Notes: generated from the letters alone by a model not told the origin. 64,000 nt of DNA from Euglena gracilis (GCA_039621445.1 CP154954.1:36441703-36505702), one strand, 5' to 3'. Numbered from the stretch's first letter, positions 2,078-28,790 are shown. Made by a program: numbers and translations.

Positions 2078-2469
2078 GAATATTATATAACGTATATGGC
2101 CACCTGCCCCCCCCCAAAAAACAATGGCCATGCGGCCAAAAATCAAAATAAATGACCATCGATGGAGGGCCATGGTGGAAAAAAATCCCATGTATTAAGG
2201 GTTTCAGCAAGACAGTCAACTGGCACAGGCAAGGAACATACACCCGTCCAAGCCTCAAGATGCCTTTAGTAATTGGGATATGACGAGGGATCCCAGGATC
2301 AGTATTTGCTTGATCTACTAAATTCAGCTCAGCAAAGTCATCCTCTGACATGGCTGGGAAGAATTTTTGGTTGGCAGGCTTTTGTGGAAGAAACTCGCGA
2401 TATTTTTGTTTTGATTCTTAATTCTAGATTAAATTTTAACACCAACCGTACGCATTCAGAGCCCTGACT

Positions 2470-3140
2470 CAGTGGTCCTTGGGATGCCAAGTTTGCCCCA
2501 CAACGACAGATGGCTCCTTGCCGGAATGTCCCCGTTGCCACCAACAAATGGATGTTGGAGGAAACCACCTTGTCTGCTGCCCCAAAAACAACACTTTGCG
2601 GCGACATGGTGCCCTCCAGACGTTCGTTTTGGACCTGGCGAGAAGGGCCGGTTTCATGGCTCGACGAGAAGAGGTGGCTGACAACCGGACAAGACCCGGA
2701 GATGTCTTCATCACGAGGTTCGACGCGGACGGACCTGCAGCAGTGGATGTCACGGTCCGCCACCCGTTGCAACCAGCAAACCCGGTCTCCTCAAAGGACG
2801 CCTTAGCACGGTGGCACGAACTACAAGAGGGAGACAAAGAACGCAAGTATGCAGCCACTTGCGAACGGCTGGGATGGACGTTCATCCCGTTTGTGGTTGA
2901 CTGCTTCGGAGGGATGGGGGAGCGAGCGGCAGGATTCATATCGAAGTGCCTCCGCACTGTGTTGGCGCAGACCGATGTTCCTCAACGACGATCGTCAGAG
3001 GCCACGGTATGGCAAGCGCTGAGTCTAACGTTGGCCAGGGAATTGGCTCGCCAGCTGGCTTGGGGGGCAGTGGCGGAGCCATCAGGCGACGTTGATCTCA
3101 CTACCCACACCCCATATGCCACGGAGTAAAAAAAAAAAAA
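2470..3140 (+). pseudogene. 5'-truncated RLE-clade non-LTR retrotransposon (CCHC knuckle plus restriction-like endonuclease)
   Basis: ORF 2479-3129 has CPRC..H..CC, RH and RPGDVFITRFD..AVD, is clearly homologous to 8716-9370, and is followed by an A-run after the stop. Confidence 0.85.
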
Positions 3141-3475
3141 GGGGGGGGGTCAGGGCGAACACCATGTAAACACCTGCGGCCGCTGAGGCCAAGCCAGGCA
3201 GCCTACACCGGCCACCAAGGGCCGGTATTATTGGCTTTGTCCCGATGACACAACATGGTAAGCACACCTGAGAGAAAGCCGAAAGGCCAGACGAACCCGA
3301 AACCTCCATTGAGCACACCGGGGAACAGCCTGCCCCCAACAAGGCCACCCCACCCCGCCTGCTCCCTGCCACCTCACCCCTCGGGCCCTGGCCCCCACAT
3401 GGCCGATTCTGGGTTCACCTGACCACCTTACCCTGAGACTGTCGCTTCTGTACATAGCCTTACCCCCTGAACACG

Positions 3476-3531
3476 TCAAATCCAGTAGGCAGTGCCACTG
3501 GTCGGTGGACTTGGTTCGCCCCACCACCGTT
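3476..3531. other. Conserved twin-hairpin motif, copy 1
   Basis: 56 bp with 3 mismatches to 13443-13498; stems CCAGT-GGC/GCC-ACTGG and CGGTGG/CCACCG. Confidence 0.6.
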
Positions 3532-3888
3532 TGACCGTACGCATGACCAACCACAAGACTAATTAAACCAAAAAACAAGCAAATCACACCTTGCAGCGAA
3601 TGGACCAAGTCTACAAAGACGTCCAAACCCTTACCGCACTGAAAACAGAGCCTTCCCTGCGCCAACTCCCCAAAACCTGAACTTGTCGCTGACACAACCT
3701 CAACACTCAACAGTCCCCATGGCCGTTCCATTGAACCTTTCCTGCCGCTGTACACTTTCCTCTCTCACTCGCTATCCCCCCTCCGTACTGTGCCCCTCAC
3801 CGCCCTTCTACTTCACCCTCGACTCTCCCCGCTCCCACCGACGCCTGTGGATGCTGGTGGATTCCCAAAAAAAATTTAAATTGGTGGC

Positions 3889-3914
3889 ACTTTCTGAGTG
3901 TCTATTTTTTTTCG
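3889..3914 (+). other. Euglenid spliced-leader (SL) exon, integrated relic
   Basis: ACTTTCTGAGTGTCTATTTTTTTTCG matches the Euglena SL exon as I recall it. It is followed by CATATCAC-ATG (3923), not by a GT donor. Confidence 0.85.
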
Positions 3915-3922
3915 CATATCAC

Positions 3923-5804
3923 ATGTCGGACAAGTGAAAGCCCCACCAGGGGTATAGTTTGAAGCTCCGAGTTCGACAAACTGTGGCATTTCATGAGAAG
4001 GCGTTGGAGCCGAGACAGCAGAGAGGAGGATGAAGGAGAAGGTTTCCTTGAAGCAGAAGAGTATGAGAACTATCTGAAACGCAGGTGGGGTTCTTCGTAT
4101 GTGATGTGAATTTTTTGGCGTTTTTTGAATTTTTTTGTAAACAAAATGGTTGCTTTTATGAGCATGAATAATCATTTTTTCTCATTGTCAGCATGAAAAA
4201 ATTCCCCGGTGGAGTTGGAGATTCTCCAAGTCCTCTCCATCAGAAAGTGCACATCCGGGAGCTCCGAAAGGATTTTATATGCGAATATATTTTATATGCC
4301 CAGAACGACCTCGCCAGCTGCGTTGGGAACAGAAGGAAGCTGACAGGAAAAGAAGAGCTGAGTACTGGGGAAGACAGACCAGAAGTCGCAGCAGAAGCCC
4401 TGACAGAAAGAGATTCAATGTTTAACGTGGTGGAAACCCTCCAGACAGGAGGAGTGCAGCTGAGTTCCCTCCAGACTGGAGGTGGCCTGACCAAGAGAGA
4501 CAGGTCAGAGATTCTTCTGCACAGAGAAGACCCCTGCAGCAGCAGCAGGAGTATGAGTAGCAGTTGGGAGACTACCCAGCACAGAGAAGACCCCTGCAGC
4601 AGCAGGAGTATGGGCAGGAGAGAGAGTACCCTGCACAGAGAAGGTCAGACACTGTACATCTGCCATCTGGGGTTATTCCATGGACTACATTTTATCAACT
4701 GCCTTAGCCTTCTCCCAGTTTGTACTCCTCTGCTGCAGCATCTGCCACAGGTCATCAAGTACCCCATCCCCAGTCTGTGATGTATACACCAGCAGCTGCA
4801 GCCACAGCAGGCCTTTCAGGACAAGCTGCAGTTTTGCCTGGCCAGGGCCAGACAATGTGTGGCCAGAACCAGATGTATATGACTCCCCAGCCTGTTTACT
4901 ATGTGGACCCCTCTGGGGCAATGTCTGCAGACCTACCCTGGTGGAAGTACCAGCTGTTGATGGGCCATTCGGTGGGGCACAATGCCATCCCCCCAGGAAC
5001 TGTCAACACCTCAGCAGCAGTGTCCTCTGCCCAGCCAGCCTCTGGAGGGCCTGGGGTCAGCACCCCCCCCCTCCTTACCAAGAAGGAGGAGGAGCCAAAG
5101 CCATTCAGGGAGAGAAAAGGAGGACTGACAGCTCTGGAGCCTCAGCCTCCACATCAACAGCCTCCAGGGCCAAATCCTCTTCTGTTTCCTCATCAGACAG
5201 TGATGACAAGCAGTAGTTGGACTTGCTGAAAGAAAGGCGACGTGAAAGGAAAGAACAGTAGCAAAAAATGAAGAAGCGGACCACACACAGGGAGAAGAAA
5301 CATTCCCATTGTGTGGCTCAGTGCGTGCTGAAGACCCCCCCAAGATTTTCTGCAGCAAAAGTCCAGGAGAGGGGAAGATATACCCCCCCAACTGCAGTTG
5401 GAGAAAAACTCGGCCATGAGTTGATTACCCCCCTTGCCCTGGAATTCGGGCCTGAGCAAGGACAAAGGGAATCCCAAACCCCAGTGATGGAAAAAGGTAC
5501 CCCCACAAGGGAGAAAAAACCGGCGGTGCAAGAAAAAAGACGGCCAGCACCAGGAGGCCCATACAAAATTTTCTCTGTCTTTGACACAGAGATTTGGAAA
5601 GTGGAAGGCCAGTGGTTAAACCCAACGGGCGTCATGTTTGACGAAAAATGCCGGGAGCCGAGGTCTGGTCCGCCCAATTCCCCGGAAAATGCTCCACTGC
5701 AGGAAACCTCTTTAAGCAGCTGGAAGAAAAAATTCCTGCATCAGCGGCAGGAGCGACGGCAGCAGGGGGCACGCTGGTCCACGAGCGGGCGGCACGTAAA
5801 TTGA
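3923..5804 (+). pseudogene. Broken low-complexity (Q/P/S/R-rich) N-terminal coding region with a GT-AG intron at 4085-4191
   Basis: Overlapping ORF pieces 4193-4780, 4720-5229 and 5268-5804. Removing the T-rich 4085-4191 segment joins ...YENYLKR in frame to SMKKFPGG. Confidence 0.5.
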
Positions 5805-7090
5805 CCAAAGTCGTGGACCAATGGCAACAGATGGGACGAAATCGTGACATCCCGGCCAAGGGCCCTTGGGGGCTGCTTTTTTCTGGTGACATCAACCCCC
5901 AGCCTGGACCAACGGCGGGCCCGTGTGGTGAATGTGATCTCCTGCATGTCTTGGTGGAACAACAAGTACAAGACATGTTCAAAATACGGGCGGATGAGGA
6001 GCCTGCAAAAGGACCAGACGGGACGTCACCTCTCTTTCAGGAAAGAGAAGCCTTCTGGGTACAGTGCACCCTGTGTGGGTGGTCAAGGCAAACAATAAAT
6101 TCTGGGTGGTGCTTGTCCCACGTACAGCATTGTGCAGAATTACAAGACATTCTTTGCGGCCCGGGAAACACATTGCTGCAGGTGCCAGAAGAACACCTAG
6201 CCACAGGCAGGGAAGGTGTGGCTTTCAGCGGTGATGTCCCCCTGAACCCGGGCCCCAGGAAGGAATCTGAAGCTCACAAAAGAAAAGCACGTGGCCATGG
6301 GAAAACTGGGCGGGAAGAAGCTGTTCTGACCCATGGTGATGTGGAGCAGAATCCGGGGCCTATGGAAGGCAGCATGGAAGTGGACTTGGGGGGGTGTCAC
6401 ACCTTACAAGGACCGTGTCCCAAAGGTTTGCGCCCTGCATGGGATGACATTGCACATGACCGAAGGACCACGTTGACATTGATCCCCAGAGGAGCGCTGG
6501 GGGAAGTGGCACGAACCCTGACCCTCTTGTTCAGACGATTACGACAAGAAGGCTCTTGGGAGGCCTTTCACTCTTTGTGGTGTTTTCCAAAGGCAGTCCT
6601 GGCAAGCACTGGACAGGGTGGACCATCCCACTGGGCCAGAATTGGGCGGCTGCTGTGTACCAGAGCCAAGGCGTACCTGGAAAAAGACGTCCATGAATGC
6701 TGGGAGTCGTCCAGGCCGTCGGAAGCGAATTTCGGATCCAGCGTCAAAACCCGATCAGCAAAAAGTAAAGAGGAGGAAATCCAACAAGAAGCCTTTCTCA
6801 ACAGAATGCAGAAACTGGTGGAAAGAGGGGCAACGGCAAAGGCGCGTCAGGCAATGTTGTCAGACGGAGTCCAAGATGCAAATGATGCAAAAATTCGTGA
6901 GCGTTTACGTCTGCTTCACCCATCAGAAGATCCGCCCGGGAAATGGCCCCCCGATGGAAGAGTGCGCCTGCCAGTCCCTGAGGGACAAGAAGGAGACGCC
7001 CACATGAAAAAGGCCGTGAGACGGGCCATCCTGTCCTTCAAAAACGAAACAGCAGGAGGACCGAGCGGGCTGACCATCTCAAAACATTGA
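5648..7090 (+). pseudogene. Retrotransposon polyprotein segment with three 2A-like motifs and a Cys/His zinc-finger-like region
   Basis: GDINPQPGP, GDVPLNPGP and GDVEQNPGP; CTLC...H..HC; ends in the TAGGPSGL motif that precedes RT in this clade. Confidence 0.8.
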
Positions 7091-8181
7091 TCTCCGCACA
7101 GGCTGCGGGCTGTGGTGATGATTTACTGGAAGAAATCTCCGCCTTTGTCTTCTCGGCAATCCAACAAGGACTGCCTTTGGAAATGGGGTCCATCTTGGCA
7201 GGAGCACGACTGACGCCGTTGAGAAAGAAGAAACCACAAACAGATGCTGCCGGTAATGTGATGCTGCATACGGACAACAATTTGCAACACGAAGGAACCA
7301 GGCCAATTGCGGCAGGAGAAGTTTTAAGACGGTTGCTTGCCAAAGTTCTGTTAAAAGAAGCCACTGTACGAAACACTCTGATTGACGGGCTGCCTGGGCA
7401 AGTCGGTGTAGGCCATTCTGACGCTTGTGCTCTCACCAGTATTGCACTGCAACAAATTGTTCAAGGACTGCAAAAGGCAGGGAAAACAGAATGGGCTGTT
7501 CTGCAGCTGGATTTTGCAAACGCCTTCAATCAATTGAAACGGGAACCCATGTTACATCAAGTGCGACAGCAGGTACCACACATGACAGCTTGGACTGAAT
7601 CATGCCATGGTTCACATTCCCCTTTGTATTGTGGAAACACAAGCCTGAGGTCCAAAACGGGAGTTCAACAAGGGGACCCTTATGGCCCGGCTCTTTTCTG
7701 CATTGCGGTGCAACCTTTGGTCAACAAAATTGCAGAAATGGTGCCATGGCAGTGCTGGTACCTGGACGACTGCCATCTAATTGGATCCATGGAACAGCTG
7801 GATCGTGTGGTGCGCATGCTTTTGGCAGACGGTCCTGCGATTGGGGTCAGTCTGAACATGGACAAATGTCGGCTGTGGGGCCCAGCCGTCAATGATGCCT
7901 TTCGCAGATTGCCACAGGGAAGCAGTGTGTTGCAACGAATACCGGCAACATCCTTTGTGGAGGGATCTGGAATCAAAGCCCTGAGGATACCTGTGACGTA
8001 CCCGGGAGATGACACGTTTGTGCGATCCATTTGGCAGGACAGATTGAAAGCTTGTGAAAAATTGTGCTACTTGCTGCAGTTCATTCCTTCCGGCCACATT
8101 CGTTTCCACCTGTTGCGCCAGTGCATTGCCAGCTGCAAAGTAAATGATCTTCTACGAGGAACACCGCTTGAACTCTTCTGA
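7087..8181 (+). pseudogene. Non-LTR reverse transcriptase domain
   Basis: RPIAAGEVLRRL, LDFANAFN, GVQQGDPYGP, YLDD (7759), GVSLNMDKC. Confidence 0.95.
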
Positions 8182-9370
8182 AGATATGGTACGGCTCTTC
8201 TCTGCCCTGGTCCGTGACAGTTTGAGCAATATTGCACGAAGACAGCTCACTGAAGCTCGATGGGAGCAATCCACCATCCCCATTCGACTGGGAGGCCTGG
8301 GCCTGCACGATGCAATAAAGACCAGGCCAGTGGCCAGATGGGCTGCTATTTTGGATTTCTGCAAAAGAGCAGAACACAGTGTCTCGTTCCCGAAAGAACT
8401 TGAGCTATTACCATCAGACTTCGTTCTGACAGGTCGCACAGTCGAACAAATCACGGGGGAGAGTCATTTGACAACTTTGATACTACAGGACTCCAATCGG
8501 ATTCCTCACCTGGGGAAAGTGGAAAGTTCCCAGAAGTTCTGGAACGACAAGCTCTCTGAGAAACGAGGAGCTGACTTGGTAACGCATTCCACCGGGGCTG
8601 ACAAGGTGCGTATTTTGAGCCAACAGAAACCTCATGCATTGGCGTGGGTGGCAGCAAACCCTTGTGCAGCAAAAAAGACATTGATGCCCCCAGGTGAATT
8701 CCGAGCAGTTCTACAATGGACTCTGGGATGACTGTTGTAGCTCCACACGAAGGTTTGGAGGCAAAGTGTCCACGATGTGAGACAGTGATGGATGACCAAG
8801 GGAATCACCTGGTTTGTTGCACAAAAAAACAATTTGGCACGGCGACATGCAGGAATTCAAAACTTCATCCTGCAGCTGGCACAGGCGGCAGGCTATACTG
8901 CTCGGCGTGAAGAGGGCACTGGAGATGGAAGACGACCTGGGGATGTTTTCATCACTAGGTTCGATGCAAACGGCCCGGCTGCAATAGATGTCTCAGTGCG
9001 GCATCCACTGGCGCCGTCCCACCCAGTGACTGATCAAAGTTGGGAACGCTGGCATGAAAGACAGGAGAAAGAAAAAGTGACAAAGTACAAAGATGTATGC
9101 AGCAGGCTGGGATGGTCACTTGTGCCCCTGGTCCTGGATTATTTTGGTGGCATTGGTGATGAAGGCAGAATCTTTTTGGGGACCTGCATCCGAGCCATCC
9201 TGGGGCAGAAGGAGCCCTGGGAAAGAAGATCCTGCGAAGCAGAGTGCTGGCAAGGACAAAGCACTGTGTTGGCCCGAGAAGTGGGTCGACAACTGTCGTG
9301 GGCTCAATGCCTGGGATCTGAAGATATGCAAAGTCCTGTTCTGGCGCATCAACCTTATAATCTGGACTAA
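8144..9370 (+). pseudogene. Thumb/linker, CCHC knuckle and RLE endonuclease (frameshifted)
   Basis: PIRLGGLGL; CPRC..GNHLVCC; RRHAGI; RPGDVFITRFD..AIDVSV; KVTKY. Confidence 0.9.
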
Positions 9371-12300
9371 AGCACAACCTGCAGGAGGACACAAAGAATG
9401 TTTCCCGCAGGCTGCTGAAAATCAAAGGCTACTGCTGAGACCGTCCCATCACAATGATGAACAGCAGTATAGTATGTAAGCAACATACCACAATTTGGGA
9501 CAGCAGCCAGAACCGACAAAGATCGGAAATGCATATGACGCACAAAAAACCGGTCTGAGAATACTTCCTCAGCTCCTCCAGTCCCCCCATCGCCGGCCCA
9601 TCGCCCTTGCTCTATGTACTTTGCACTTTGCGGTCCACTGGCCACCCAGGACCTCTTCCAGCCATGACCAACAACATCGGGAAAACAAGGCTTGGGACAC
9701 AAAGAGCTCTGTCACAACAAACAGCTTGCACTTGCATTGCACACGATTCTCATCGTATCCCAGAAACGATGAGTCAAAAAAGCCTGGTCTGAAAACACTT
9801 CATCTTCACGCAACAAGACAAAACAGGATTTGGCCCACCATGCTGGCCCATCCTGGCACCATGTAATCTGAGGCACCACCAATCACCGGCGTTAGTTATG
9901 ACCACAAAGATCGAAAATATGGCACATGAGACACAAAAAAGATCGACAACGGCCCTCTTACCCTGTGACACGGCTTTGTACATTACGCATATATATTGAA
10001 CCCGTAACTCCACGTGGTGGCATTGGAGATGAAGACAGAATCTTTTTGGGGACCTGCATCCGAGCCATCCTGGGGCAGAAGGAGCCCTGGGAAAGAAGAT
10101 CCTGCGAAGCAGAGTGCTGGCAAGGACTAAGCATTGTGTTGGCCCGAGAAGTGGGTCGACAAATGTCGTGGGCTCAATGCCTGGGATCTGAAGATATGCA
10201 AAGTCCTGTTCTGGCGCATCAACCTTATAATCTGGACTAAAGCACAACCTGCAGGAGGACACAAAGAATGTTTCCCGCAGGCTGCTGAAAATCAAAGGCT
10301 ACTGCTGAGACCGTCCCATCACAATGATGAACAGCAGTATAGTATGTAAGCAACATACCACAATTTGGGACAGCAGCCAGAACCGACAAAGATCGGAAAT
10401 CCAGCATATGACGCACAAAAAACCGGTCTGAGAATACTTCCTCAGCTCCTCCAGTCCCCCCATCGCCGGCCCATCACCCTTGCTCTATGTACTTTGCACT
10501 TTGCGGTCCACTGGCCACCCAGGACCTCTTCCAGCCATGACCAACAACATTGGGAAAACAAGGCTTGGGACACAAAGAGATCTGTCACAACAAACAGCTT
10601 GCATTTGCATTGCACACGATTCTCATCGTATCCCAGAAACGATGAGTCACAAAAGCCTGGTCTGAAAACACTTCATCTTCACGCAAGAAGACAAAACAGG
10701 ATTTGGAGCACCATGCTGGCCCATCCTGGCACCATGAAATTTGAGGCACCACCAATCACCCGCGTTAGTTATGACCACAAAGATCGGAAATATGGCACAT
10801 GAGACACAAAAAAGATCGACAACGGCCCTCTTACCCTGTGACACGGCTTTGTACATTACGCATATATATTGAACCCGTAACTCCACGTGGTGGCATTGGA
10901 GATGAAGGCAGAATCTTTTTGGGGACCTGCATCCGAGCCATCCTGGGGCAGAAGGAGCCCTGGGAAAGAAGATCCTGCGAAGCAGAGTAGGACTAAGCAT
11001 TGTGTTTGAATGTCCGAGGTCCCCTTACAACGGACCTGACTTCTGGAGCCCCTTCCTTTACTTGACATCCCTTTCACTGAAATCTCTTTCCCAAAATCCC
11101 ACTTCCAGCAGCAATGACCAAACTTGAAATAAACTTGCGCCGCAGACAAAATCAAACAAATACAATCTCAGGAAAGTAATCCCAGACAACAGAGTGAACA
11201 GTGTATGTTGACAGCCACCTACAGACAGCACCATCATTTTTTCTGTGAATTAGGATCTGCCTGTTTGAATTAGGCTTCACCCTGTGATTTCATGGTGACC
11301 ATAAAAATGGACCTGGACCACTCCCACCCCCCTGCTCAAGAGATTGCCCTCGGCAATCTGACCTGACTCCAATTTGGGCCAGGTGCATCGAAATTTTTGG
11401 GGGAGCCAGGCAAAAAAGTGGTCCATTTGAAATTGCAATGGTACTGTCCTGGGTGATTGCCTTCACACCTGCCACCGACACACTACACAGCACACAGGGG
11501 TGACACGATCTGAGTGACTATGTTACAGCCAATGAATGATTAGCAGCCAAATTGCAGCACACTTCTGCGGCATCAGGCCACATCGGATAAATTCTTTCGC
11601 AGCCGATCCACAGGTGTACACACAGTACCGCGGCGTCAGGCCACAGTCAAAGACAAATACCCAGCAGCCGACCACAATCAAAGTTGCAGCAAATTGTAAT
11701 TACCAATCACAATCACTTTGCAATGTCCAATCTGGTCCCCAATTTTGTCCATCAATCTTCAAACCTTCAAATCTTTTTTGGTGGTCGAGCCATCTCCGCT
11801 GTAGCCGTCTGGCCCTTGTCCGCCTTTTGCAAAATGTTTGGCAAGCCACGGATTCCAGTCTCAGAGAATCTGTCTGGCAGGCAACTGAACGACATCTCAC
11901 CAAATCTGGCTGTACATCTCGATGGCGTCCCCTGTTCGAACTGGACTGGGACACTGTCCTGATACACTGTTCATGAATGTCCGAGGTCCCCTTACCACGG
12001 ACCTGACTTCTGGAGCCCCTTCCTTTACTTGACATCCCTTTCACTGAAATCTCTTTCCCAAAATCCCACTTCCAGCAGCAATGACCAAACTTGAAATAAA
12101 CTTGCGCCGCAGACAAAATCAAACAAATCGAATCTCAGGAAAGTAATCCCAGACAACAGAGTGAACAGTGTACGTTGACAGCTACCTACAGACAGCGCCA
12201 TCATTTTTTCTGTGAATCACGATCTGCCTGTTTGAATTAGGCTTCAGCCTGTGATTACATGGTGACCATAAAAATGCACCTGGACCACTCACATGTTGGC

Positions 12301-13028
12301 CCGAGAAGTGTGTCGACAACTGTCGTGGGCTCAATGCCTGGGATCTGAAGATATGCAAAGTCCTGTTCTGGCGCATCAACCTTATAATCTGGACTAAAGC
12401 ACAACCTGCAGGAGGACACAAAGAATGTTTCCCGCAGGCTGCTGAAAATCAAAGGCTACTGCTGAGACCGTCCCATCACAATGATGAACAGCAGTATAGT
12501 ATGTAAGCAACATACCACAATTTGGGACAGCAGCCAGAACCGACAAAGATCGGAAATCCAGCATATGACGCACAAAAAACCGGTCTGAGAATACTTCCTC
12601 AGCTCCTCCAGTCCCCCCATCGCCGGCCCATCACCCTTGCTCTATGTACTTTGCACTTTGCGGTCCACTGGCCACCCAGGACCTCTTCCAGCCATGACCA
12701 ACAACATCGGGAAAACAAGGCTTGGGACACAAAGAGCTCTGTCACAACAAACAGCTTGCATTTGCATTGCACAGGATTCTCATCGTATCCCAGAAACGAT
12801 GAGTCACAAAAGCCTGGTCTGAAAACACTTCATCTTCACGCAAGAAGACAAAACAGGATTTGGCCCACCATGCTGGCTCATCCTGGCACCATGTAATTTG
12901 AGGCACCACCAATCACCCGCGTTAGTTATGACCGACAAAGATCGAAAATATGACACATGAGGCACAAAAAAGATCGACAACGGCCCTCTTACCCGGGAAG
13001 CCGGTGACACCGCTATGTACATTACGCA

Positions 13029-13036
<8 letters not shown>
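9145..13036 (+). repeat. Three tandem ~870-bp copies of the retrotransposon 3' end
   Basis: Units start at 9145, 10015 and 10888 (TGGTGGCATTGG). The third unit is interrupted by the 11007-12293 insertion. Confidence 0.9.
11007..12293 (-). mobile_element. Non-autonomous miniature LTR retrotransposon (TRIM-like)
   Basis: 320-bp direct repeats 11007-11326 and 11974-12293 with TG...CA ends; TSD TGTT (11003-11006, 12294-12297); minus-strand purine tract at 11327-11337; no convincing ORF. Confidence 0.9.
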
Positions 13037-13350
<314 letters not shown>

Positions 13351-13442
13351 CCCTTCATTGCCCAAGAGCTAGAGTGTCTAAAAAAATACTAAATTACAAT
13401 TAAAAAAAAATTAAATTAATTATCATAACCGCCTGCGGACCT

Positions 13443-13498
13443 TCAAATCCAGTAGGCTGTGCCACTGGTCGGTGGATTCGGTTCGCCCCACCACCGTT
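13443..13498. other. Conserved twin-hairpin motif, copy 2
   Basis: Near-identical to 3476-3531. Confidence 0.6.
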
Positions 13499-13534
13499 CT
13501 CGCTTTCTGGTCCTCTTAATTCTAGCAAAAAAAA

Positions 13535-14260
13535 GGCCTGAAAACGCCCCCTCAACACCACCACTGGCCTGAAAAGGCCCTGGGCCTGAAAAGGCCCCAT
13601 CTGCTACAGGGCCTGACAAGGCCCGTCCAGCCAGTGGGCCTGAAAAGCCCCCCCCCCGCCTTTGGGCCTTCAAAGGCACCTCCATTTGGGCCTGCAAAGG
13701 CCCCTCATCTTGGGCTTCCAAAGGCCCCCCCTTTGGGCCTGCAAAGGCCCCACCATTAAGTGCTACTTTCAGCTCCAAGGTCTTCTTTTCTGTGTTCTGC
13801 ATTGCATCCCAAACCTTTGATCAATTGAAGTGGCAAACCCCCAGTTTTCACAGCACATGTTACACCAAAAGCTGTGACACATTTTGCAGCAGTTTTGACT
13901 TGACATTGAAAAACATTTTGCCACCCCAACCCCTCAATGACACTTTTTGCAGCAGTTTGACTTGAAATTGAAAAACATTTTGCCACCTCAACCCCTCAGT
14001 GACACCGTTTCACCCCAGTGTCCTGCAAAGTCACTGGGCCTGCAAAGGCCCCCCTGTGAAACCATTTCGATCTGTTGCACCATTTTGCCCCAGTGGCCTA
14101 AAGGCCATGGGCCTGCAAAGGCCCCCTTCCAACACCATTTTGCTCCAGTGGCCTGCAAAGACCCTGGGCCTGCAAAGGCCCCCCTGTGACACCTTTTGGT
14201 CCTGTTGCAGCATTTTGTCCCAGTGGCCTGCAAAGGCCATGGGCCTTCAAAGGCCCCCCC
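13535..14260. repeat. Cluster of ~16 short palindromes GGGCCT-N4-AGGCCC
   Basis: GGGCCTGCAAAGGCCC and variants recur at irregular spacing in two groups. Confidence 0.8.
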
Positions 14261-14289
14261 TGCCACCATTTTTGCTCTCAGCTTGAAAA

Positions 14290-16690
14290 GCCCCCGACGA
14301 ACTGGCGAGCCACGTTCCTCCACATTTTGGCCTGCAACAGTGGCCACCCAGCCAGACAGCACATCCACTTTTTGGTCTGCAACAGTGGCCCCGCAGCCAG
14401 CCAGTTCTGCCAGATGCTGCTGGCCTTCAACCTTCCCTCAGCAATATGAATTTGACAACCCCCAGGTTACCTCTCCGCTGACCGGAAAAGACCACCCAAC
14501 GTCGGCCAAACAAAGAAAAGTGCTTGTGCCTTACACTCCTGCGAAATACAGGACACAGCCTACACTGGCAGCATCGGGGGGAGCGGGCCGAGGTCGGTCT
14601 TTACTCAGCTGCGGGGACATTGAAAGTAACCCCGGACCTCCTACAGACCCACCATTTGTTCCGTGTGAGGATATTGACATGGCGCCAGCATCACAAATCT
14701 CCATCCCTCCTGCTGCACCACCGCCCGCAGAGCCCCCGTCGGTGGCGGGTGAGGACGTTGACATGGCGCCAGCATCACAAATTTCCATCCCGAGGGCCGG
14801 CTTCGATCGGTACCATCTTCTGGACGCGCGGCTTCGAGTCCCGATGAGCTAAACTCCGATCCGGGGGTGCACGGGACTTGAACCAGCCATGGCATACGGC
14901 GCTGCCAGGCGGGGTAAGGAATGGCTGCCATATGGCGGGAAGTTCCGATGGCGCCGAGGTAGAAATCAGCAACCAGAGGCTCGACCCTGGCGTGCCTGAT
15001 GGGTAAGGGCCGGCGAACCATAGATTCAACGGCGTTTGCCCACCTGACGTGTCACGATTAAACCATTGCGGCTTCGGCCGAGCAGTGACACCAAAGACAA
15101 GCAACCCCTATCAAGCACGCCATCGCCAAGCATCAGGAGCTGAGGCAAGGGATGGAGGACTCCGAGTGCCTCGAACCCTAGGGCTAATGCCCCCTGGCGG
15201 AGTGTAGCTCCACATCCGAGAAAGTGAAACGCTTGGGTCCAGCAAGTTTTTAAAAAAAAGTCGGCCCACCACCGTTGGAGGAGATTTGAGAGCAAAAAAG
15301 GGCATTTGTCATGGATTGCTACGGGGGCATGCGACAGGAAGCGCGCTCCTTGATGGCCACCCTCCTCAAGGCCCTTTTGGGGCAGCGGGAAGGGTGACAT
15401 CGGCCGCGGAAGCAGGCATTTGGCAAGGCCTTCCTTCACACTAATGAGAGAAATCAGCAGATAGCTCGTTCGGAGCTTGTATTCTTCCAAATATGAGATC
15501 ACCCTGTCTTCCGCCCACTCACCATATTCTGTCTGAAGGCCTTTGAGCTCTCAACAAAAATCACCAACATTGACCTCTCACCTGCCGTTTACACCCCAAG
15601 TTCAGATTACAAAATGAGCAAAGAAGGCACAACTCAGTAACCCCTAGTAACCCCTTGAGCAGAGCCACACGCCGAGCCAAAGACATATCAACGGATCACA
15701 AAGACGCGGAGAGAAGCAAAACACACAACAGCCAAAAACCCGACACAAACACGCCATCCCGTTTCAAAAGAGGTACAAACGCCCCCTCCCCGCCCAATAT
15801 ATATTGAAGGTGACCTTTGCTCATCTTCCTCTAACCACTAACCTCCGCACCCTGAACAAGCATCACTCAGCACTCTTTTGTACATTACACCCAGAGTATA
15901 AACAACCCGCGACGTGTGGCGGCACAGGGAGTAACAAGGGGGTTCCTCTTGTGGCGAGGGCCAAAAGAGACGTTTCCCTGGCCCGGGGCACGATTTGGGT
16001 GAAGCTGTGCTACCTACCGTGTGCTTCTGCAAAAAAGGCGAGGGCGAAAAGAGACGTTTACGTGGGCCCGGGGGACGGTTTGGGTGAAGCTGTGCTACCC
16101 ACCGTGTGTTCGTTATCACTAAAAAAAAGAGCCCATGTTCTCACGGCATTGGTGGAGGAAGGCGCACTGTCCAAGGCCGCTAAGCTGTTGGTGTCAAATG
16201 GGCTTGTCAACTCGCAGGAACCAGGTGTGGAAGCCGTACTGAGGGACCTCCATCCCCAGCACAGCCACACTTGGTCCCGGCAGGGGATTGGCCCACCTCG
16301 ATTGCCTGCCGCCTGGTGGACGAGGGCATGGACGAAGAGGAGAGCAACGAGCAGTGGTCCAAGCGGGCGGACCATCTGGGCTGCGTCCAATCCACCTCAG
16401 TGAAAGTTGCCGAAAGCTGGGGGGGGCCTGGTCCAAGCCCTCGGCAAGCTTGCTGCGACGGCCCTGACCACATCATTCCCGGAGAGCGTGCGAGAAGTGC
16501 TATGCGCCTCCACGCTCATCCCGCTCCGCAAGAAGGATGGGGGGTGTGCGGCTCATTGCTGTCGGGGACACCCTCCGGCGAGTGGCGGGCAAGTGCCTTC
16601 CCCATTCTGAAGCGGTGACGATAGAGTTGGCAGCCCCACAACCGCGGCAGTGCGGGGTGGGAGTGCGCAACGCCGCCGAGATGGTGGGCA
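14290..16690 (+). pseudogene. 5' part of a second decayed CRE-like non-LTR retrotransposon, with a T2A-like peptide
   Basis: GRGRSLLSCGDIESNPGP (core 14616-14639); LVEEGALSKAAKLLVSNG is homologous to LVERGATAKARQAMLSDG of element 1; ASTLIPLRKKDGG and IAVGDTLRR. The 5' boundary is approximate and 15060-15940 may be unrelated DNA. Confidence 0.7.
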
Positions 16691-17809
16691 TGACGACCTT
16701 TTGAGGTCGACCGCCGGGCGGCGGAGTTTTTCCCTTTTAGAAGGCCTTTTGAGGGCGGTTTTGCTCTAATTTTAAGGCTTTCTAAAGATTTTTATTAAAA
16801 TTCCCTCTCCTAGGGCGCCCATGGTTTGGTTGTGCAAGGAGAGAGATTGAGTGATGCTAGGTAATCCCAAGGGGTGATTTTGGGTTTATTTAGCACAATT
16901 TAAGCTTTTTATGCATTTTTCCTTTGGTTTTAAGGGAAAATGTTGGATTTGGTGAGAGCGCTTGCAAGCGCTTGGATCAGATTTTTCTGAGATTGGCGCC
17001 TGAGTTCCTGGAGTTTTTGCAGGGGTTTGCAAAGCTCAATAATGATGGAATTCAGCATGATTTATCAAAATCAAGGGGGGAAACCTTGATTTTGACATGG
17101 GTTGGTTGATTTTGATGCAATGGGCAAGGATTTGGGATTTGAGAGCGCTTAGGAATCAGCGCACTCAATCCTAAATTTAACTGCCCATCAAGGGCATCAA
17201 AATCACATTCCTCTTCACAGGGTTTTCCTCTATTTTCCTCTTCACTTGTTTCACCATTGCATTTGTTGTGTCAATTACAACCAATTACATTCAATCATTG
17301 AACTTGGATTTACAATTGGAATTGCAAATGGAAGGACAACAAATCAATCAAGAAAGCTCAATTGAAGAAGGTGAGGTTTGTCTTCCCCCCACCTCATCTG
17401 TGGGAAAAGGGGCAGGGGGGTGGGTCTCTTCAACTCAGGCAACCACAGGCCAAATTTCACCCCAAAACCCCCTTTTTGGCCCAGAAACGGTGAGAAATGA
17501 CACCCAGGGGGGGGTGTTGGCTCTCACTGGTTCAGCTGAGCAGGGAGGGGTTGAAACCCCAAAGGCACCCCCCTTGGAGATCCCAGTGACACCCCCGTCA
17601 GGGGTCGGGGAGGGTCCACTGGGAAGTTCCTCCTTGGAAATGATGGCCCAGTTTCGGCCACAGGGGGGGGGGCCAGAATGGGAAAAAATTTCCGACACAA
17701 GTCGGCTCGAGGAGCCAAAAAACGATCCTACGCCGGAAACTGGCCCGGGGCGGGGGTTTCCGCTTCACCCCAGTGCTGCCGGGGGACATGGCAGCACGGG
17801 GGTGAAACA
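16691..17809 (+). repeat. 5' LTR (1119 bp)
   Basis: TG...CA ends; direct repeat of 28791-29906; strong hairpin at 17764-17806. Confidence 0.95.
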
Positions 17810-20800
17810 TGGTAAGCAGAGGTTGATCCTTCAGCCTTCAGTCGGAAATTTTGGGTTGGAAATCCCTGCTCAGAATGTTTTCTTTGATGATCAGCCAATG
17901 GCCCAATCTCAGATGGCAAATCTGACGATTGGAGTTTCGGGGAACAGGGATTTGGGACCCGAAACCAGTTTGGCTGGACTCAGAACCCCCACAAATATGG
18001 GACAGATGTTGGAATTTCAGGGTGGGGATGGCCAGGTTGTCATTTCCAACCAACCGTGTTTTCCAGAGCCTTTTTCAGGGGTTTTGCCTTTGCAAAATAT
18101 GGGGTACGGTTTTGTGCTGCCTGAGTTGCAACCTCTCCCAGACTTTTCATGGGTGCAAAATTTAGGGAATCTGCCATCATTACCCGCTTTTGCATTGCCT
18201 TTGCCTCCAGCTCAACCAGTTTCTTCAACACCAGCCCAAGAGCCGGTGGCACTTTTGCAGTTTTCCCAACCATCCCAGGTAGATGGGCTGGCGAAGGAAA
18301 CGGCAAGTGCCTCGGCATGGCAGGGGGTGATAACCCCAGCCCAGTTTTCTTTGAAAAGCAAGCACAGGTCAATGTGCTGGGCTTAAACAATAATAATAAC
18401 TGGGACAGCAGCGAACGGGTCAGAGCAGAAGTCGAGCAGGCAGAGGAAAACCCGAAGGACCAGCCCAGCTCTACTTCTGCTCGACGACCCCGAACACCGG
18501 CTTCATCACCAGGCAGTGATGAAGTTCAGCAAAAACGGCTGCACCGTGAGGTTGATCACGGTCAGCCAGCAGCTGCTGCAGCCCCCCAGCCTCCTCATAT
18601 TTTCATCGAGGGGGGTGAGGAGGAGGTCCAACCCCCAGCCTATGAAAGTTCTGAAGCCACCCCCAGGGGGGGTTCACAAAATCAGGAATTTGAAGACCCC
18701 TGGGGGCAGTTTTTACAAAGTAACAGAGACCTCCAGTGGACTGTGCAGCACCTGACTTTTCGGGTTTTGGCTTTGGAAAAAGCCAACGAAGAGTGGGTTC
18801 TGCAGCAGCAGCAGCAACAACCCCCCGCAGTCGACATCCACCTGGTGGAGCACATGGCTGCACGAATCGAAGAAACGGCCAGGGCTGACTGCCTCCATAT
18901 TTTTGAACTTTTTGAGAAAAAATGTGAGGCCCAGGTGCAAATTTCTGTGCAAAAAATTGACGCACAGGCACTTGAACTTTTTGTCGGGCAGGAAAAAAGT
19001 TTTGAGGAAAAACTGGCCCAGCAGTTTTCTTCGAGCCGTGATCAGTTTTTGGCCCTGAGGCAGGAATTTTTACGAATTTTGGACAGCCTGCCACAGGAAA
19101 TTTTTAAGCAGGTGCAAAATCAGGTGGCTGCCTTACCAATTAAGGATCTCGTGCTTGAAAATTTTCAGCGGTTTGCTGAGAATTTTAAAGCCGCCCAGCC
19201 AGCTCAGGGGGGGGAGGCAGAAACTCTCCAGGAGCTGGCCGTTGTCGCTGCCAAAATCGTTGAAGTTCAGGCTGACCTGGTATCGCTGCGTAGTACGGTA
19301 CAGGGCCAGGCTCAGCAGCTCCAGCAGTTCGCTGATTATGTTCGCCAGCTGGGTGAGCAAAATTCAGCAATGAATACGGCCCTCCATAGTTTTGGTGGTG
19401 GTATTCAGAAACTGCACCAGAATATTTCAGATGAAGTAGGGAAACGACACTCAGAAATGCAAAAACTGTTGACGGATTGTCAGCAGAATTTTCAGAGTGT
19501 TCATCAGCAGATTTTTTCCCAGGAGAAAAAATTTGGTGGGCTGGTGGAGGAATTAAGGCAGGGACTTGCAAAAGTTGGGGGGAACACTTTCGAGTTGCAG
19601 AAAGTGTTGCAGGATTTACAAAAAAATGGACCCGTACACCCAACTGCAGAACCGAGAGGAGTTTTGCAAAAAAATTCTGACATGTGGTGGCTGCGGCAGG
19701 GCAGCCAGCAACCCCTGCACCCAGTTGGGCTGCCACAGCCTGGGCAGCAGCTGGCCCAGCAGCCTGTCATCCAGCTGGCCCAGCAGCCTGGCCAGCCAGC
19801 AGGCCAGCCGCAGCCTGCTCACGGGCTGCCAAGGGGGCTGGGCCTGCCGTCAGCTGGACAGCAGCAGCCCCTGGGGCAGCCTTCCAGCTCACTGGCCAGC
19901 ACGGTGCCCAGTGCTGACCCAGCTTTTTCAGATCAGATTATTTCTCAAAATAAATCTGCAGGTTCAAACATTTCCCCTCCCTTAGTTATTGAGGGGGGAT
20001 TTGTTTTGGAGGACACGCAAGACACGGCAGTGGTTTCTTCTGTGTCATTGTGTGTCCCTCCACACGTTTCTGCAGCCCCTGCTTTCTCGATTAGGCCTAT
20101 CGGGACAGGGGGGGCTGCAGCCAACCCAGGACACGGGTTGGGTTTTCCTTTTATCGGTGACCCAGTAGCTTTTGAAATTTTGCAGGGAGGTGCTAAGCCC
20201 TATTTTGATGAATCGGGCAGCATTTCCTGGCAAGATTTTGAAGTAGATTGGAATCTTTACTGGGACAGGTTGACATCAGGGAAACCGTATTCTGATTTGC
20301 AAAAGCTGCAGGTTTTTGAGGCATGTTTAGGACCCAGATTAAGGGAGGAAATCAGGCTCTATCGGTTGAATGGAGCTAAATTAAGTTACCCCACCATATT
20401 AGCCCAATTCCAGAACCGTTATGCCTCGAGTAAGGGGCTGACGGCTCGGAAAATATGGCAGGAGGTAACTATGGTAAACGAAGGAAAAATTACCCGGGCT
20501 GATCTGCAAGAATTTTGGATTAAATTTTGCAGTGCCTGGCACCATGTAAAGGATGCCACAGCCGGGGAGGCTCGGAGATTATTTTTGGAAAGAATTCCTC
20601 CTTTTTTAAGCAAGTTTTGCATAGAAGAGGAGGATAACCGAGCCCGTAAACAACCCATTGTCAGGCTCACAGGGATACCAAATCCCACGGTGGATGGGAT
20701 TAAAAGGAGTGTGAGCCAGATCACTGGGGGGATTGATCCACGGAAAGTGGTTATCAAAAACCCTGGTGCCATTTGCCTTATTTATTTCAGTTCTTCGGAG

Positions 20801-21520
20801 GAGGCACTGAAATTAACAGCCGTAAATGGAAGGAAATTGCAGGGAATGGAAAATTTCCTCAACGCCGAATTGGTGGAACAACTAATGACCGTTGAGGAAA
20901 TGTTTGCTTTTGCCGAGGGCAGGTTGGCTCTTCGGGAGAAGCAGGATTTGGCTTTGAATCAGCACCATTTTCCCAGATTATTCAGCAAATCAACAACAAA
21001 AGGCTCAGGGAAAATACAGGTGTTGGAAAAAGGCCAAACCCCCCCGGTGTCCCCAACCTCTGTGTCAACACCAGCGGCTGGGGGGCAGGGTCACACCTCA
21101 AAATCTGCCCCACAGCCAGCTCCAAAGGGAGATAAGGGGCCAGCCCAGCCAGCCCAGCGGGGCAGGTCCCCTTCTTCGTCTTCGCGGCCAGGTGCAGCTT
21201 CATGGTCGCGAACCCAAAGTCCAGCACCCCCAGCCCGGCAAGGCAAGGGGGGGCAGACCTGGACCCCGCAGGCATCGGGTAGGGGCAGGTCCCCATATCC
21301 ATGCTTCAACTGTGGGGAGTGCGGGCATTATTTTTATGAGTGTGAAAAACCGCTGAGTGAGGCCCTTGCTAAATCTAAGGATTTTTGGCAAAATAATGGA
21401 AAAGGCAAGGGGCAGCCCAAGGGTAAAGGGCAGCCAGCCACTCAGCGAAATTCCTCAGGCAAGGGGGGTGCATGGTCAAAGGGGGGTGGGCCCACCTCTT
21501 CTCCCCCTGGGGCCCAATAG
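17328..21520 (+). CDS. gag: Very long Gag-like protein (frameshift near 18350): P/G-rich N-terminus, coiled coil, capsid-like region, RRM-like insert, CCHC knuckle
   Basis: ORFs 17268-18386 and 18149-21520; CFNCGECGHYFYEC (21302-21343); TAG stop at 21518-21520. Confidence 0.75.
17810..17825 (+). promoter_or_regulatory. Primer-binding site, tRNA-iMet-like
   Basis: TGGTAAGCAGAGG directly follows the LTR and resembles the iMet-type PBS TGGTAGCAGAGG with one extra A. Confidence 0.7.
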
Positions 21521-21633
21521 GGGGGCCAGGGGCAGTTTGAGAAGGGGGGGCTGCCCATGGCCGTGTCTCTCCCCCCTGTGAGGAAAACGGTGTAAATATT
21601 TCTGATTCAAAAAACTGGGTTGTACAGGATTTT

Positions 21634-22848: not shown

Positions 22849-23254
22849 CCGAACATGGTTTGGGTGTGTTCCCACACCATAAGGCTTTGGTTTTTGACAA
22901 CCCTAATCTGACTTTCTTGTACGGGTGGGATACAAGAAATCAGAAACGGAAATCCCATAAGGGGAAGAAAAAACACAATTCACAAAAAAGAATTGGGGTT
23001 GTGGTTTCTGACTTCGGAGAATCCCCTGAAAACGCACCAACCACGGAGTCCCTTGAAAATGAAAAGGTGTGGTTGGACCTGCAAAAAATGAATTTGCACC
23101 TACCCTTGCAAGGCTTTGATATGCAACCAAAATTCCTTGGCAAGAAGGAATTGCATACCATAGCTCAGCATCTCACCGAATCACCAGCCGAGGACAAGGC
23201 AGTGAATGCCATAATCAGGCTCGCGACTCGGGTGAGAAGGAGGACCCCAGGGTA

Positions 23255-28780: not shown

Positions 28781-28790
28781 AGGGGGGGAG
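28781..28790 (+). promoter_or_regulatory. Polypurine tract
   Basis: AGGGGGGGAG immediately before the 3' LTR. Confidence 0.85.

What the first reader, a model, noticed from the sequence alone, without database searches (positions are those of the whole stretch)
3889..3930. Complete spliced-leader exon fused to the 5' end of a CRE-like retrotransposon
Seen: a full SL exon followed by 8 nt and an ATG, with no GT donor, at the head of coding-like sequence leading into the RT. Known: CRE/SLACS/CZAR elements target SL genes in trypanosomatids, and relic SLs mark retro-recycled mRNAs in dinoflagellates. Inference: either the element RNA is trans-spliced and was reverse-transcribed to its capped end, or the element inserted at the exon boundary of an SL gene.
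Basis: partly seen in the sequence, partly recalled or inferred. Interest (0 to 1): 0.75.

Follow-up and report, generated by a model that had tools for sequence, protein, structure and literature searches.

The report
Spliced-leader-capped retrotransposon copy in Euglena
A dead copy of a jumping gene in a Euglena-type genome still carries, at its front end, the short leader that the cell normally adds to finished messenger RNAs, which shows that a mature RNA was copied back into DNA.

Summary
Window 3889-3914 is an exact 26/26 copy of the Euglena gracilis spliced-leader (SL) exon. It is unique in the window, is followed by CA rather than a GT donor, then 8 nt and an ATG (PMC6242988). That ATG opens only a 4-codon ORF.

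Recognisable retrotransposon sequence starts about 1.35-1.95 kb further on. It is a decayed polyprotein with three 2A-like peptides, a zinc finger, an RT (Pfam RVT_1, YLDD intact) and a C-terminal CCHC/restriction-like endonuclease. Its best solved relatives are R2 proteins.

A 16-bp direct repeat (15/16) flanks 3883-13401. It starts 6 nt before the SL and follows an A-rich tail.

Best reading: one target-primed reverse transcription event copied a trans-spliced, polyadenylated RNA to its 5' end.

Insertion into an SL gene, as in CRE/SLACS, is not supported. Membership of the CRE clade was not tested.

It stays open whether the leader (3915-5268) is the element's own. None of 18 relatives shares it, and no Euglena genome could be searched.

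Precedents are dinoflagellate relict SLs and SL-bearing Hydra transposon transcripts. I found no Euglena report. Moderately interesting.

The parts
3867..3882 (+). 5' copy of the putative target-site duplication (AAAAAAAATTTAAATT)
   Evidence: Only two matches in the window at up to 2 mismatches (3867-3882 and 13402-13417), with 0.14 expected. It is the longest 1-mismatch match of the 99-nt 5' flank anywhere in the window on either strand; the next best are 14 nt.
3883..3888 (+). 6 extra nucleotides (GGTGGC) between the repeat and the SL
   Evidence: Read directly. Origin unknown. The 8-mer TTGGTGGC recurs at 9144, but 8-mer matches are expected by chance.
3889..3914 (+). Complete spliced-leader exon copy, 26/26, with no GT donor after it
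   Evidence: unique, 0 mismatches, 0.00 expected. SL sequence from PMC6242988.
3915..5268 (+). Leader of unknown ownership. It holds a 4-codon uORF (ATG 3923), a 38-codon ORF from ATG 3993, an AT-rich intron-like segment at 4085-4191 (GT..AG, 31% GC), and residual open frames (frame 1 at 4189-5229 with 3 stops; frame 0 at 4557-5804 with 2 TAG).
   Evidence: No Pfam family. No real homologue of 4193-4777 or of 4708-5226. 0 of 18 relatives match it.
5269..9370 (+). Decayed polyprotein of an RLE-type non-LTR retrotransposon. Parts: N-terminal peptide; 2A-like peptides ending at 5911, 6256 and 6361; C2H2-like zinc finger at 6065-6133; RT (RPIAAGE 7300, YLDD 7759-7770); degenerate CCHC; endonuclease motifs RPGD 8933 and AIDVSV 8981. 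There are frameshifts near 5642-5804, 7066-7072 and 8168, and in-frame stops at 8729, 8738 and 8786.
   Evidence: Pfam RVT_1 E=5e-15. 2A motifs. 38-45% identity to P0001 over 5834-9358. 18 of 18 relatives match the RT. Stops. The start at ATG 5269 is inferred: it lies 214 codons before the end of 2A-1, against 207 in P0001.
9371..13379 (+). 3' region. Three tandem 870-bp units begin inside the ORF at 9145 (9145-10014, 10015-10884, 10888-13035). The third is split by a nested 1.28-kb element at 11007-12289 with 317-bp terminal direct repeats. A (TA/GA)n microsatellite lies at 13036-13345, followed by 34 nt of unique sequence.
13380..13401 (+). A-rich tail (AAAAAAATACTAAATTACAATT) that runs into the A-run of the 3' repeat copy
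13402..13417 (+). 3' copy of the putative target-site duplication (AAAAAAAAATTAAATT, 15/16)

Best explanation
The SL at 3889-3914 is a DNA copy of the 5' end of a mature RNA. The RNA had been SL-trans-spliced and polyadenylated, and target-primed reverse transcription (TPRT) copied it all the way to its 5' end. I take that RNA to be the full-length mRNA of an R2-like, restriction-like-endonuclease (RLE) non-LTR retrotransposon. It consisted of the SL, a leader of about 1.35 kb, a polyprotein punctuated by 2A peptides (N-peptide, 2A, zinc finger, 2A, 2A, RT, CCHC/endonuclease), a 3' region and an A-rich tail. The element's own RT/endonuclease nicked an A/T-rich site, primed on the tail and copied through the SL, leaving a 16-bp target-site duplication and 6 extra nt at the 5' junction. 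The copy later decayed through frameshifts and stops, underwent an internal tandem duplication of its 3' part, and received a nested insertion.

Shown: the exact SL without a donor; the element's domains; the flanking repeat and A-rich tail; the decay.

Inferred: that the template was trans-spliced (from the exact exon boundary); that the leader belongs to the element; that the element's own enzyme did the copying; and that such elements depend on host transcription plus trans-splicing for their capped 5' end.
For: 1. The SL is an exact 26/26 match, unique in the window, and ends precisely at the exon's 3' end with CA rather than GT. SL RNAs use a GT donor, and more than 70% of E. gracilis transcripts are trans-spliced (PMC10679874, abstract and introduction passages).
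2. One 15/16 direct repeat of 16 bp brackets 3883-13401. The 3' copy follows an A-rich tail. It is the best flank match in the whole window on both strands, with only 2 hits at up to 2 mismatches against 0.14 expected.
3. Between 3915 and 9400 there is no A-run longer than 7 and no repeat of the 5' flank of 14 nt or more, so nothing marks a separate polyadenylated retrocopy ending before the element.
4. The element is a real RT/RLE retrotransposon: Pfam RVT_1 E=5e-15 with YLDD intact; 38-45% identity to the intact 1736-aa protein P0001; a family profile hits R2 proteins best, 9nl3_A at E=5e-20 against L1 ORF2 at 2e-7.
5. Relatives sit on contigs with 0.6-2.1 kb of non-ORF sequence (P0001 5794 nt for 1736 aa; P0003 7645 nt for 1849 aa; P0006 5887 nt for 1613 aa), so a leader over 1 kb is within the family's range.
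6. A neighbouring relative (2440-3141) ends in A13, so this kind of element is polyadenylated.
7. TE transcripts that carry an SL are documented in Hydra, in about 30% of TE Iso-Seq reads (PMC12220107, passage).
Against: - Only one copy could be examined.
- 0 of 18 protein relatives match 3915-5833 at E<=1e-3.
- The leader has no intact ORF, no Pfam family at curated cut-offs and no real homologue among 1.84 billion representatives.
- The leader holds a 107-nt AT-rich GT..AG segment (4085-4191) whose removal would join two open frames. That is odd for a copy of a fully processed RNA.
- Part of the leader read through its stops gives a weak, sub-threshold SR-25 (splicing-associated protein) match: E=2.9e-5, 24.2 bits against a cut-off of 40. 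It is probably compositional but is compatible with a host-gene origin.
- The flanking repeat is low-complexity A/T and separated from the SL by 6 unexplained nt.
- About 4 kb of rearranged sequence lie between the stop codon and the tail, whereas the neighbouring relative has its poly(A) directly after the stop codon.
Confidence: 0.5

Rival explanations
1. Hitch-hiking or chimeric template. The SL and leader (3889 to about 5268, or to 5830) come from a host (or other) trans-spliced transcript, not from the element. Either the element already lay inside that transcript, for example in its 3' UTR, and the whole RNA was retroposed. Or the RT switched from the element RNA to a second RNA during one TPRT event, as in L1 chimeras.
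For: 0 of 18 relatives share the leader. By analogy with P0001 the polyprotein starts at ATG 5269, so the leader is not needed for the ORF. The leader shows R/S-rich and S/basic clusters and a weak SR-25 match (E=2.9e-5, below cut-off). There is an intron-like segment at 4085-4191. A single TSD-bounded unit is equally expected under this model. L1 chimeras with other RNAs are described (10.1101/2025.02.02.635956; search listing and abstract only).
Against: No poly(A) remnant longer than 6-7 nt lies at any candidate junction. No homologue of the leader's ORF pieces was found in databases that do hold relatives of the element. No second SL marks the element's own 5' end.
Confidence: 0.3
2. Two independent insertions: an SL-bearing processed retrocopy happened to land just upstream of an unrelated, possibly 5'-truncated, element copy.
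For: The window is packed with nested retroelements. A 5'-truncated relative lies only 750 bp upstream.
Against: There is no A-run of 8 or more and no repeat of the 5' flank of 14 nt or more between 3915 and 9400. The only good flank repeat lies beyond the element, at 13402.
Confidence: 0.07
3. DNA-level link to an SL RNA gene. Either the element inserted at the exon/intron boundary of a dispersed SL gene (CRE/SLACS/NeSL-style targeting), or a master copy in an SL gene was co-transcribed from the SL promoter and carried the exon along as a 5' transduction.
For: Most described CRE and NeSL elements insert into SL exons (PMC3636483 section 8 passage; PMC4640811 passages). Some Euglena SL genes are dispersed (PMC2784804 passage).
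Against: It requires an insertion exactly after nt 26, which trans-splicing gives for free. The window has no SL intron, no second SL fragment and no 5S rRNA gene. 3889-3995 does not fold unusually (z=-0.72). The bracketing repeat is non-SL A/T-rich DNA upstream of the SL.
Confidence: 0.06
4. Artefact or chance: a cDNA-derived read mis-assembled into the genome, or a chance match.
For: None specific.
Against: A 26/26 match has 0.00 expectation. The copy is embedded in decayed, rearranged genomic repeats with a flanking direct repeat.
Confidence: 0.03

Closest known systems
Relict spliced leaders in dinoflagellate retrogenes (mRNA recycling)
   Same: An SL sequence encoded in genomic DNA at the head of a retroposed unit, taken as proof that a mature trans-spliced RNA was reverse-transcribed (PMC3942190 retroelements section passage; PMC6050394 and PMC5585692, search listing and abstracts only).
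   Different: The lineage differs (a Euglena-type SL). The unit carries a retrotransposon's own RT/endonuclease polyprotein rather than a cellular gene. The SL is complete and single, not a truncated relic behind a new SL. My searches found no report for euglenids.
CRE clade and NeSL: SL-gene-specific RLE non-LTR retrotransposons (CRE1/2, SLACS, CZAR, NeSL-1)
   Same: RT followed by a CCHC/restriction-like endonuclease, an N-terminal zinc finger, a host from Euglenozoa, and physical association with an SL sequence.
   Different: Those elements sit inside SL RNA genes with SL-gene sequence on both sides. Here a whole SL exon lies only at the 5' end, inside the duplicated target, in non-SL DNA. 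Clade membership by RT phylogeny was not tested. Neither the three 2A peptides found here nor the SLBP-like and Dam-like domains found only in relatives are features I know from CRE elements (recalled).
SL-trans-spliced transposon transcripts in Hydra
   Same: Shows that TE RNAs use the host's SL trans-splicing; 30.9% and 29.7% of TE Iso-Seq reads carry an SL (PMC12220107 passage).
   Different: That is RNA-level evidence. The passage I read does not report SL copies at the 5' ends of genomic insertions.
L1Tc/ingi and other non-LTR elements with 2A peptides
   Same: D(V/I)ExNPGP ribosome-skipping motifs inside a non-LTR polyprotein. GDVEQNPGP at 6335-6361 fits the consensus (consensus from 10.64898/2026.09.24.754024 abstract).
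   Different: The published cases I saw are APE-type elements (PMC3708506, title and abstract). This one is RLE-type and has three 2As in a row. Relatives use them to separate an SLBP-like RNA-binding domain, a zinc finger and a Dam-like methyltransferase.
R2 retrotransposons (solved structures)
   Same: Best sequence-profile matches in the PDB: 9nl3_A at 5e-20, 9dou_A at 9e-20, R2Bm 8gh6_A at 5e-9. The order RT then CCHC then endonuclease is the same.
   Different: Only the RT part aligned. There is no rDNA target here. Identity is low.

Membership tests
Retroposed copy of an SL-trans-spliced RNA (relict-SL retrocopy) | Complete SL exon in DNA, ending exactly at the exon's 3' end, with no splice donor or SL intron after it | tested here: met
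   26/26 match at 3889-3914; the next bases are CA; 3889-3995 has no SL-RNA-like fold.
Retroposed copy of an SL-trans-spliced RNA (relict-SL retrocopy) | A-rich 3' tail and target-site duplication bracketing the unit | tested here: met
   15/16 repeat of 16 bp at 3867-3882 and 13402-13417, after an A-rich tail at 13380-13401. It is the best flank match in the window. Caveat: low-complexity A/T sequence, and 6 extra nt at the 5' junction.
Retroposed copy of an SL-trans-spliced RNA (relict-SL retrocopy) | No introns relative to the source gene | tested here: inconclusive
   The source is unknown. A 107-nt AT-rich GT..AG segment (4085-4191) would join two open frames if removed.
Retrotransposon whose own mRNA is SL-capped (the SL is part of the family's 5' end) | Independent copies or transcripts of the family share the same SL-leader junction | not testable with these tools
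0 of 18 protein relatives match the leader. 0 SL matches (up to 5 mismatches) in 60 distant loci from other organisms.
RLE-type (R2/CRE group) non-LTR retrotransposons | Reverse transcriptase domain | tested here: met
   Pfam RVT_1 E=5e-15 against a cut-off of 29.6 bits; YLDD at 7759-7770. The profile hits R2 proteins best.
RLE-type (R2/CRE group) non-LTR retrotransposons | CCHC motif and PD-(D/E)xK-type endonuclease C-terminal to the RT, with no N-terminal APE | tested here: met
   Invariant C807, C810, H820, C824, R832, H833, E854, R862, D865, D880 and K910 in 6 relatives. The window copy keeps RRH, RPGD and AIDVSV, but its CCHC is destroyed by 3 stops. No Pfam or PDB match covers this domain. 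The motif names are recalled.
CRE clade (CRE1/2, SLACS, CZAR) | Site-specific insertion inside SL RNA genes, with SL-gene sequence on both sides | tested here: not met
   There is a single SL, only on the 5' side. No SL fragment, SL intron or 5S gene lies elsewhere. The flanking repeat is A/T-rich non-SL DNA.
CRE clade (CRE1/2, SLACS, CZAR) | RT phylogeny groups with CRE references | not tested
   No CRE, NeSL, R4 or HERO reference sequences were reachable. None of the 18 relatives carries an informative name. The Atlas gave only unnamed RVT_1 clusters.
2A / StopGo peptides | C-terminal D(V/I)ExNPG|P motif | tested here: met
   GDVEQNPGP (6335-6361) fits. GDVPLNPGP (6230-6256) is close. GDINPQPGP (5885-5911) is degenerate. 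Activity is not testable here.

The most novel reading that the evidence does not exclude
Euglena RLE-type retrotransposons have no promoter of their own. They ride on host transcription and obtain cap and translatability by SL trans-splicing. Every full-length daughter then writes the SL into DNA, so the SL becomes a heritable 5' terminal part of the element. Its T8 tract, followed by the AG at 3931-3932, could act as a ready-made 3' splice site for the next round. If so, SL-tagged insertions would give a genome-wide, datable record of retrotransposition and of mRNA recycling in euglenids, parallel to but independent of dinoflagellates.
Probability: 0.25. Interest if true: 0.75.

Novelty: new variant of a known kind. 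Interest (0 to 1): 0.55.

Why it matters
The finding is direct sequence evidence that a mature, trans-spliced RNA has been reverse-transcribed into a Euglena-type nuclear genome. The unit concerned contains the very kind of enzyme that can do this. If the SL proves to be the regular 5' end of this family, three things follow:
- It would show how a promoter-less retrotransposon lives in a trans-splicing host.
- It would give a simple 26-nt tag for finding full-length insertions and retrogenes genome-wide.
- It would extend the 'mRNA recycling' idea from dinoflagellates to euglenids.

It also draws attention to an unusual element family, RLE-type with three 2A peptides; relatives add SLBP-like and Dam-like domains. 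If the leader turns out to be a host transcript, this is an ordinary chimeric retrocopy.

Tried and rejected
1. SL RNA gene reading. Rfam at gathering thresholds on the whole window gave 0 matches. Permissive scans of 3100-4300 and 12900-14300 gave only a weak snoRNA hit and microsatellite hairpins. ARAGORN found 0 tRNAs. The fold of 3889-3995 has z=-0.72.

2. Homologues of the leader.
- 4193-4777: none of 444 candidates scored.
- 4708-5226 against 1.84 billion representatives: 1 hit, P0002, a 2003-aa repeat protein matched through an 'EEKKG'-type repeat in 11 stretches. I judge it spurious.
- Pfam at E<=10 on five pieces: nothing.
- Read-through with X at stops: only a sub-threshold SR-25 match.

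3. SLBP-like domain in the window copy. A 3-sequence HMM built from relatives found nothing there; the best E in the window was 1.1, elsewhere. My by-eye resemblance is dropped.

4. Second or partial SLs. Only chance-level fragments were found.

5. A 56-nt motif shared by 3476-3531 and 13443-13498 (94.6%). I considered it as a conserved 3' UTR or as a target. It lies outside the bracketed unit, has no Rfam match and shows no covariation. Left unexplained.

6. Clade naming. The PDB single-sequence search gave 0 hits.

7. Keller et al. 1992 (SL-RNA gene sequence) is not held, so the sequence upstream of the SL could not be compared with real SL genes.

8. The genome-contig scan gave 60 loci at 23-38% identity, all labelled bacterial MAGs, and none holds the SL. 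They are of no use for the 5' junction.

bioRxiv supplements were not consulted.

Full report
**The observation**

Window 3889-3914 reads ACTTTCTGAGTGTCTATTTTTTTTCG. PMC6242988 (Introduction passage) gives exactly this 26-mer as the invariant spliced leader (SL) of Euglena gracilis mRNAs. An SL-specific primer in PMC5654406 holds the same 26 nt.

It is the only match in the window at up to 3 mismatches on either strand, with 0.00 expected in 100 shuffles. A sliding search with 12-16-nt parts found only chance-level fragments. The best is a 12-nt exact match near 19446-19457 (-), which has no T-run.

The exon copy is followed by CA, not the GT donor that SL RNAs use (PMC10679874 introduction passage). 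That ATG, however, opens only MSDK-stop. The organism is therefore E. gracilis or a close relative; this is an inference from the SL.

**What lies downstream**

An RT (Pfam RVT_1, E=5e-15) lies in the ORF piece 6982-8178, and YLDD is intact at 7759-7770.

The piece 5642-7087 carries three 2A-like peptides:
- GDINPQPGP, ending at 5911
- GDVPLNPGP, ending at 6256
- GDVEQNPGP, ending at 6361

A C2H2-like zinc finger lies at 6065-6133, between the first two.

The C-terminal piece 8789-9367 keeps RRH, RPGD and AIDVSV motifs. These align with the invariant CCHC and endonuclease residues of six relatives.

A word-index search found one intact relative, P0001 (1736 aa). It is 38-45% identical to the window over 5834-9358. 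A second search found 17 more relatives. All 18 match the RT region. A profile of six of them hits solved R2 proteins best (9nl3_A at 5e-20), ahead of L1 ORF2 (2e-7).

The element is therefore a non-LTR retrotransposon of the restriction-like-endonuclease (RLE) type.

It is a dead copy. There are frameshifts near 7066-7072 and 8168, and one somewhere in 5642-5804. There are three in-frame stops in the CCHC region.

**Where the element begins**

P0001's similarity starts at 5834. Its ORF starts 207 residues before the end of its first 2A. In the window, ATG 5269 lies 214 codons before the end of 2A-1. I therefore take 5269 as the likely start of the polyprotein.

The 1354 nt between the SL and 5269 make up a 'leader', and I could not assign it. 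Evidence on the leader:
- It has no intact long ORF.
- It has no Pfam family at curated cut-offs.
- Two of its longest frames have no real homologue.
- 0 of 18 relatives match it.
- It does show remnants of coding. Frame 1 is open over 4189-5229 apart from 3 stops. Frame 0 is open over 4557-5804 apart from two TAGs, both in a CAGTAG context.
- Read through with X at the stops, frame 0 gives a sub-threshold SR-25 match (E=2.9e-5, 24.2 bits against a cut-off of 40). This is probably compositional.
- A 107-nt, 31% GC segment (4085-4191) has GT..AG ends. Removing it would join the ATG-3993 frame to the 4193-4777 frame. I cannot explain this segment.

**Is the SL part of the same insertion as the element?**

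The 99 nt upstream of the SL were compared with the whole window on both strands. The longest match with one mismatch is 16 nt: 3867-3882 against 13402-13417 (15/16). The runners-up are 14 nt. The 16-mer has only these two hits at up to 2 mismatches, with 0.14 expected.

The 3' copy directly follows an A-rich stretch (13380-13401) and merges with it. This is the classical picture of target-primed reverse transcription (TPRT) on an A/T-rich site.

Inside 3915-9400 there is no A-run longer than 7. No repeat of the 5' flank of 14 nt or more lies anywhere in the window outside 13402-13417. So nothing suggests a separate retrocopy that ends before the element.

The bracketed unit (3883-13401) contains, in order:
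- 6 extra nt (GGTGGC)
- the SL
- the leader
- the polyprotein
- a rearranged 3' region, made of three tandem 870-bp units that start inside the ORF at 9145, the third split by a nested 1.28-kb element with 317-bp terminal repeats, and then a (TA/GA)n microsatellite

Caveats: the repeat is low-complexity, the 6 extra nt are unexplained, and the long 3' region contrasts with the neighbouring relative, whose poly(A) follows its stop codon directly.

**Mechanism**

The boundary falls exactly after nt 26. That is what trans-splicing produces and what a DNA-level accident would not. More than 70% of E. gracilis transcripts are trans-spliced (PMC10679874 abstract). Hydra shows that transposon RNAs can receive SLs (PMC12220107 passage).

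I therefore read the SL as the reverse-transcribed 5' end of a mature RNA (about 0.85 for this step). I read the RNA as the element's own mRNA (about 0.5 overall).

The main rival (0.3) is that the leader is a host or other transcript. It could have been co-retroposed with an embedded element, or joined by template switching.

The remaining rivals are weak:
- Independent adjacent insertions (0.07).
- An SL-gene origin (0.06). There is no 5S gene, no SL intron, no second SL piece and no SL-RNA-like fold. The target duplication is non-SL DNA.
- An artefact (0.03).

**Comparison with known systems**

- CRE, SLACS, CZAR and NeSL elements are RLE-type elements that insert into SL exons (PMC3636483 and PMC4640811 passages). 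This element shares the enzyme architecture but not the defining location. Its clade could not be tested.
- Dinoflagellate relict SLs are the closest functional precedent (PMC3942190 passage; abstracts).
- My searches found no report of SL-bearing genomic retrocopies or retrotransposons in euglenids: 'Euglena + spliced leader + retrotransposon' (18 papers), 'spliced leader + retroposition + relict + euglen', and 'non-LTR retrotransposon + spliced leader + trans-spliced + target site duplication'. These searches cover open-access text only.

**Limits**

The one genome-contig scan returned 60 distant loci from other organisms, none with an SL.

Noticed in passing
window 2440-3141: A 5'-truncated relative of the element, endonuclease part only. 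It is 49-62% aa identical to 8825-9301 and 51% to P0001. Its stop codon TAA runs straight into A13, followed by G9. It lies 750 bp upstream of the SL and outside the bracketed unit.
   Followed up: partly
window 3476-3531 and 13443-13498: A 56-nt motif shared at 94.6% identity. One copy lies upstream of the 5' repeat and the other just downstream of the 3' repeat. It is far better conserved than the neighbouring elements. Two hairpins are predicted, with no covariation, no Rfam match and no tRNA. Function unknown.
   Followed up: partly
window 4085-4191: A 107-nt, 31% GC segment with GT..AG ends and a pyrimidine run before the AG, inside the leader. Its removal would join the ATG-3993 frame to the 4193-4777 frame. 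An intron-like feature inside a unit that starts with an SL is unexpected.
   Followed up: partly
window 9145-13035: Three tandem 870-bp units (97% identical) made of the last 225 nt of the polyprotein ORF plus 645 nt downstream. Both inter-unit junctions (unit 1 to 2 and unit 2 to 3) carry the same 17-nt filler. The third unit is split by a 1.28-kb element (11007-12289) with 317-bp TG..CA terminal direct repeats (96.5%) and a TGTT duplication.
   Followed up: partly
window 14190-16691 and 29907 to about 31900: A second, distant RLE-type element (about 30% aa identity) with one consensus 2A (GDIESNPGP, about 14613-14639) and no SL. It is split by a 13.2-kb Ty3/gypsy-type LTR retrotransposon (16691-29907; 1.12-kb LTRs 99.6% identical; Pfam RVT_1, RNase H, integrase and a weak chromodomain).
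   Followed up: partly
window 30325-45289 and 45291-60189: A 14.9-kb tandem segmental duplication (98-99% identical). It includes the 3' half of the second element and another RT-bearing ORF (33670-35631, RVT_1 E=2e-21). A weak match to the Dam-like part of P0001 lies just downstream, at 35989-36132 and 50955-51179.
   Followed up: no
proteins P0001, P0003, P0006 (relatives, not in the window): Intact relatives are single polyproteins cut by three consensus 2A peptides each. They separate an SLBP-like RNA-binding domain (PF15247, precomputed for P0003 and P0006), a zinc finger, a Dam-like adenine methyltransferase with NPPF (PF05869 precomputed for P0003; sub-threshold in P0001) and the RT-endonuclease. 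3 of the 15 relatives examined have 2As. The window copy lacks the methyltransferase segment and shows no SLBP-like domain. A 2026 preprint on DAM-carrying retrotransposons notes LINE-like RTs with DAM in Euglena but treats them as LTR/DIRS elements or artefacts (10.64898/2026.05.21.726589, passages).
   Followed up: partly
loci L001-L060 (genome contigs): 60 loci in records titled as bacterial MAGs encode relatives of this RT-endonuclease protein at 23-38% identity. Many come from one 'Dehalococcoidia' assembly and one 'Nitrospirales' assembly. This looks like eukaryotic DNA binned into MAGs. None holds the Euglena SL.
   Followed up: no
window about 19446-19457 (-): A 12-nt exact match to SL positions 3-14, inside the LTR retrotransposon, without the T-run. 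Judged to be chance (about 0.1 expected).
   Followed up: yes
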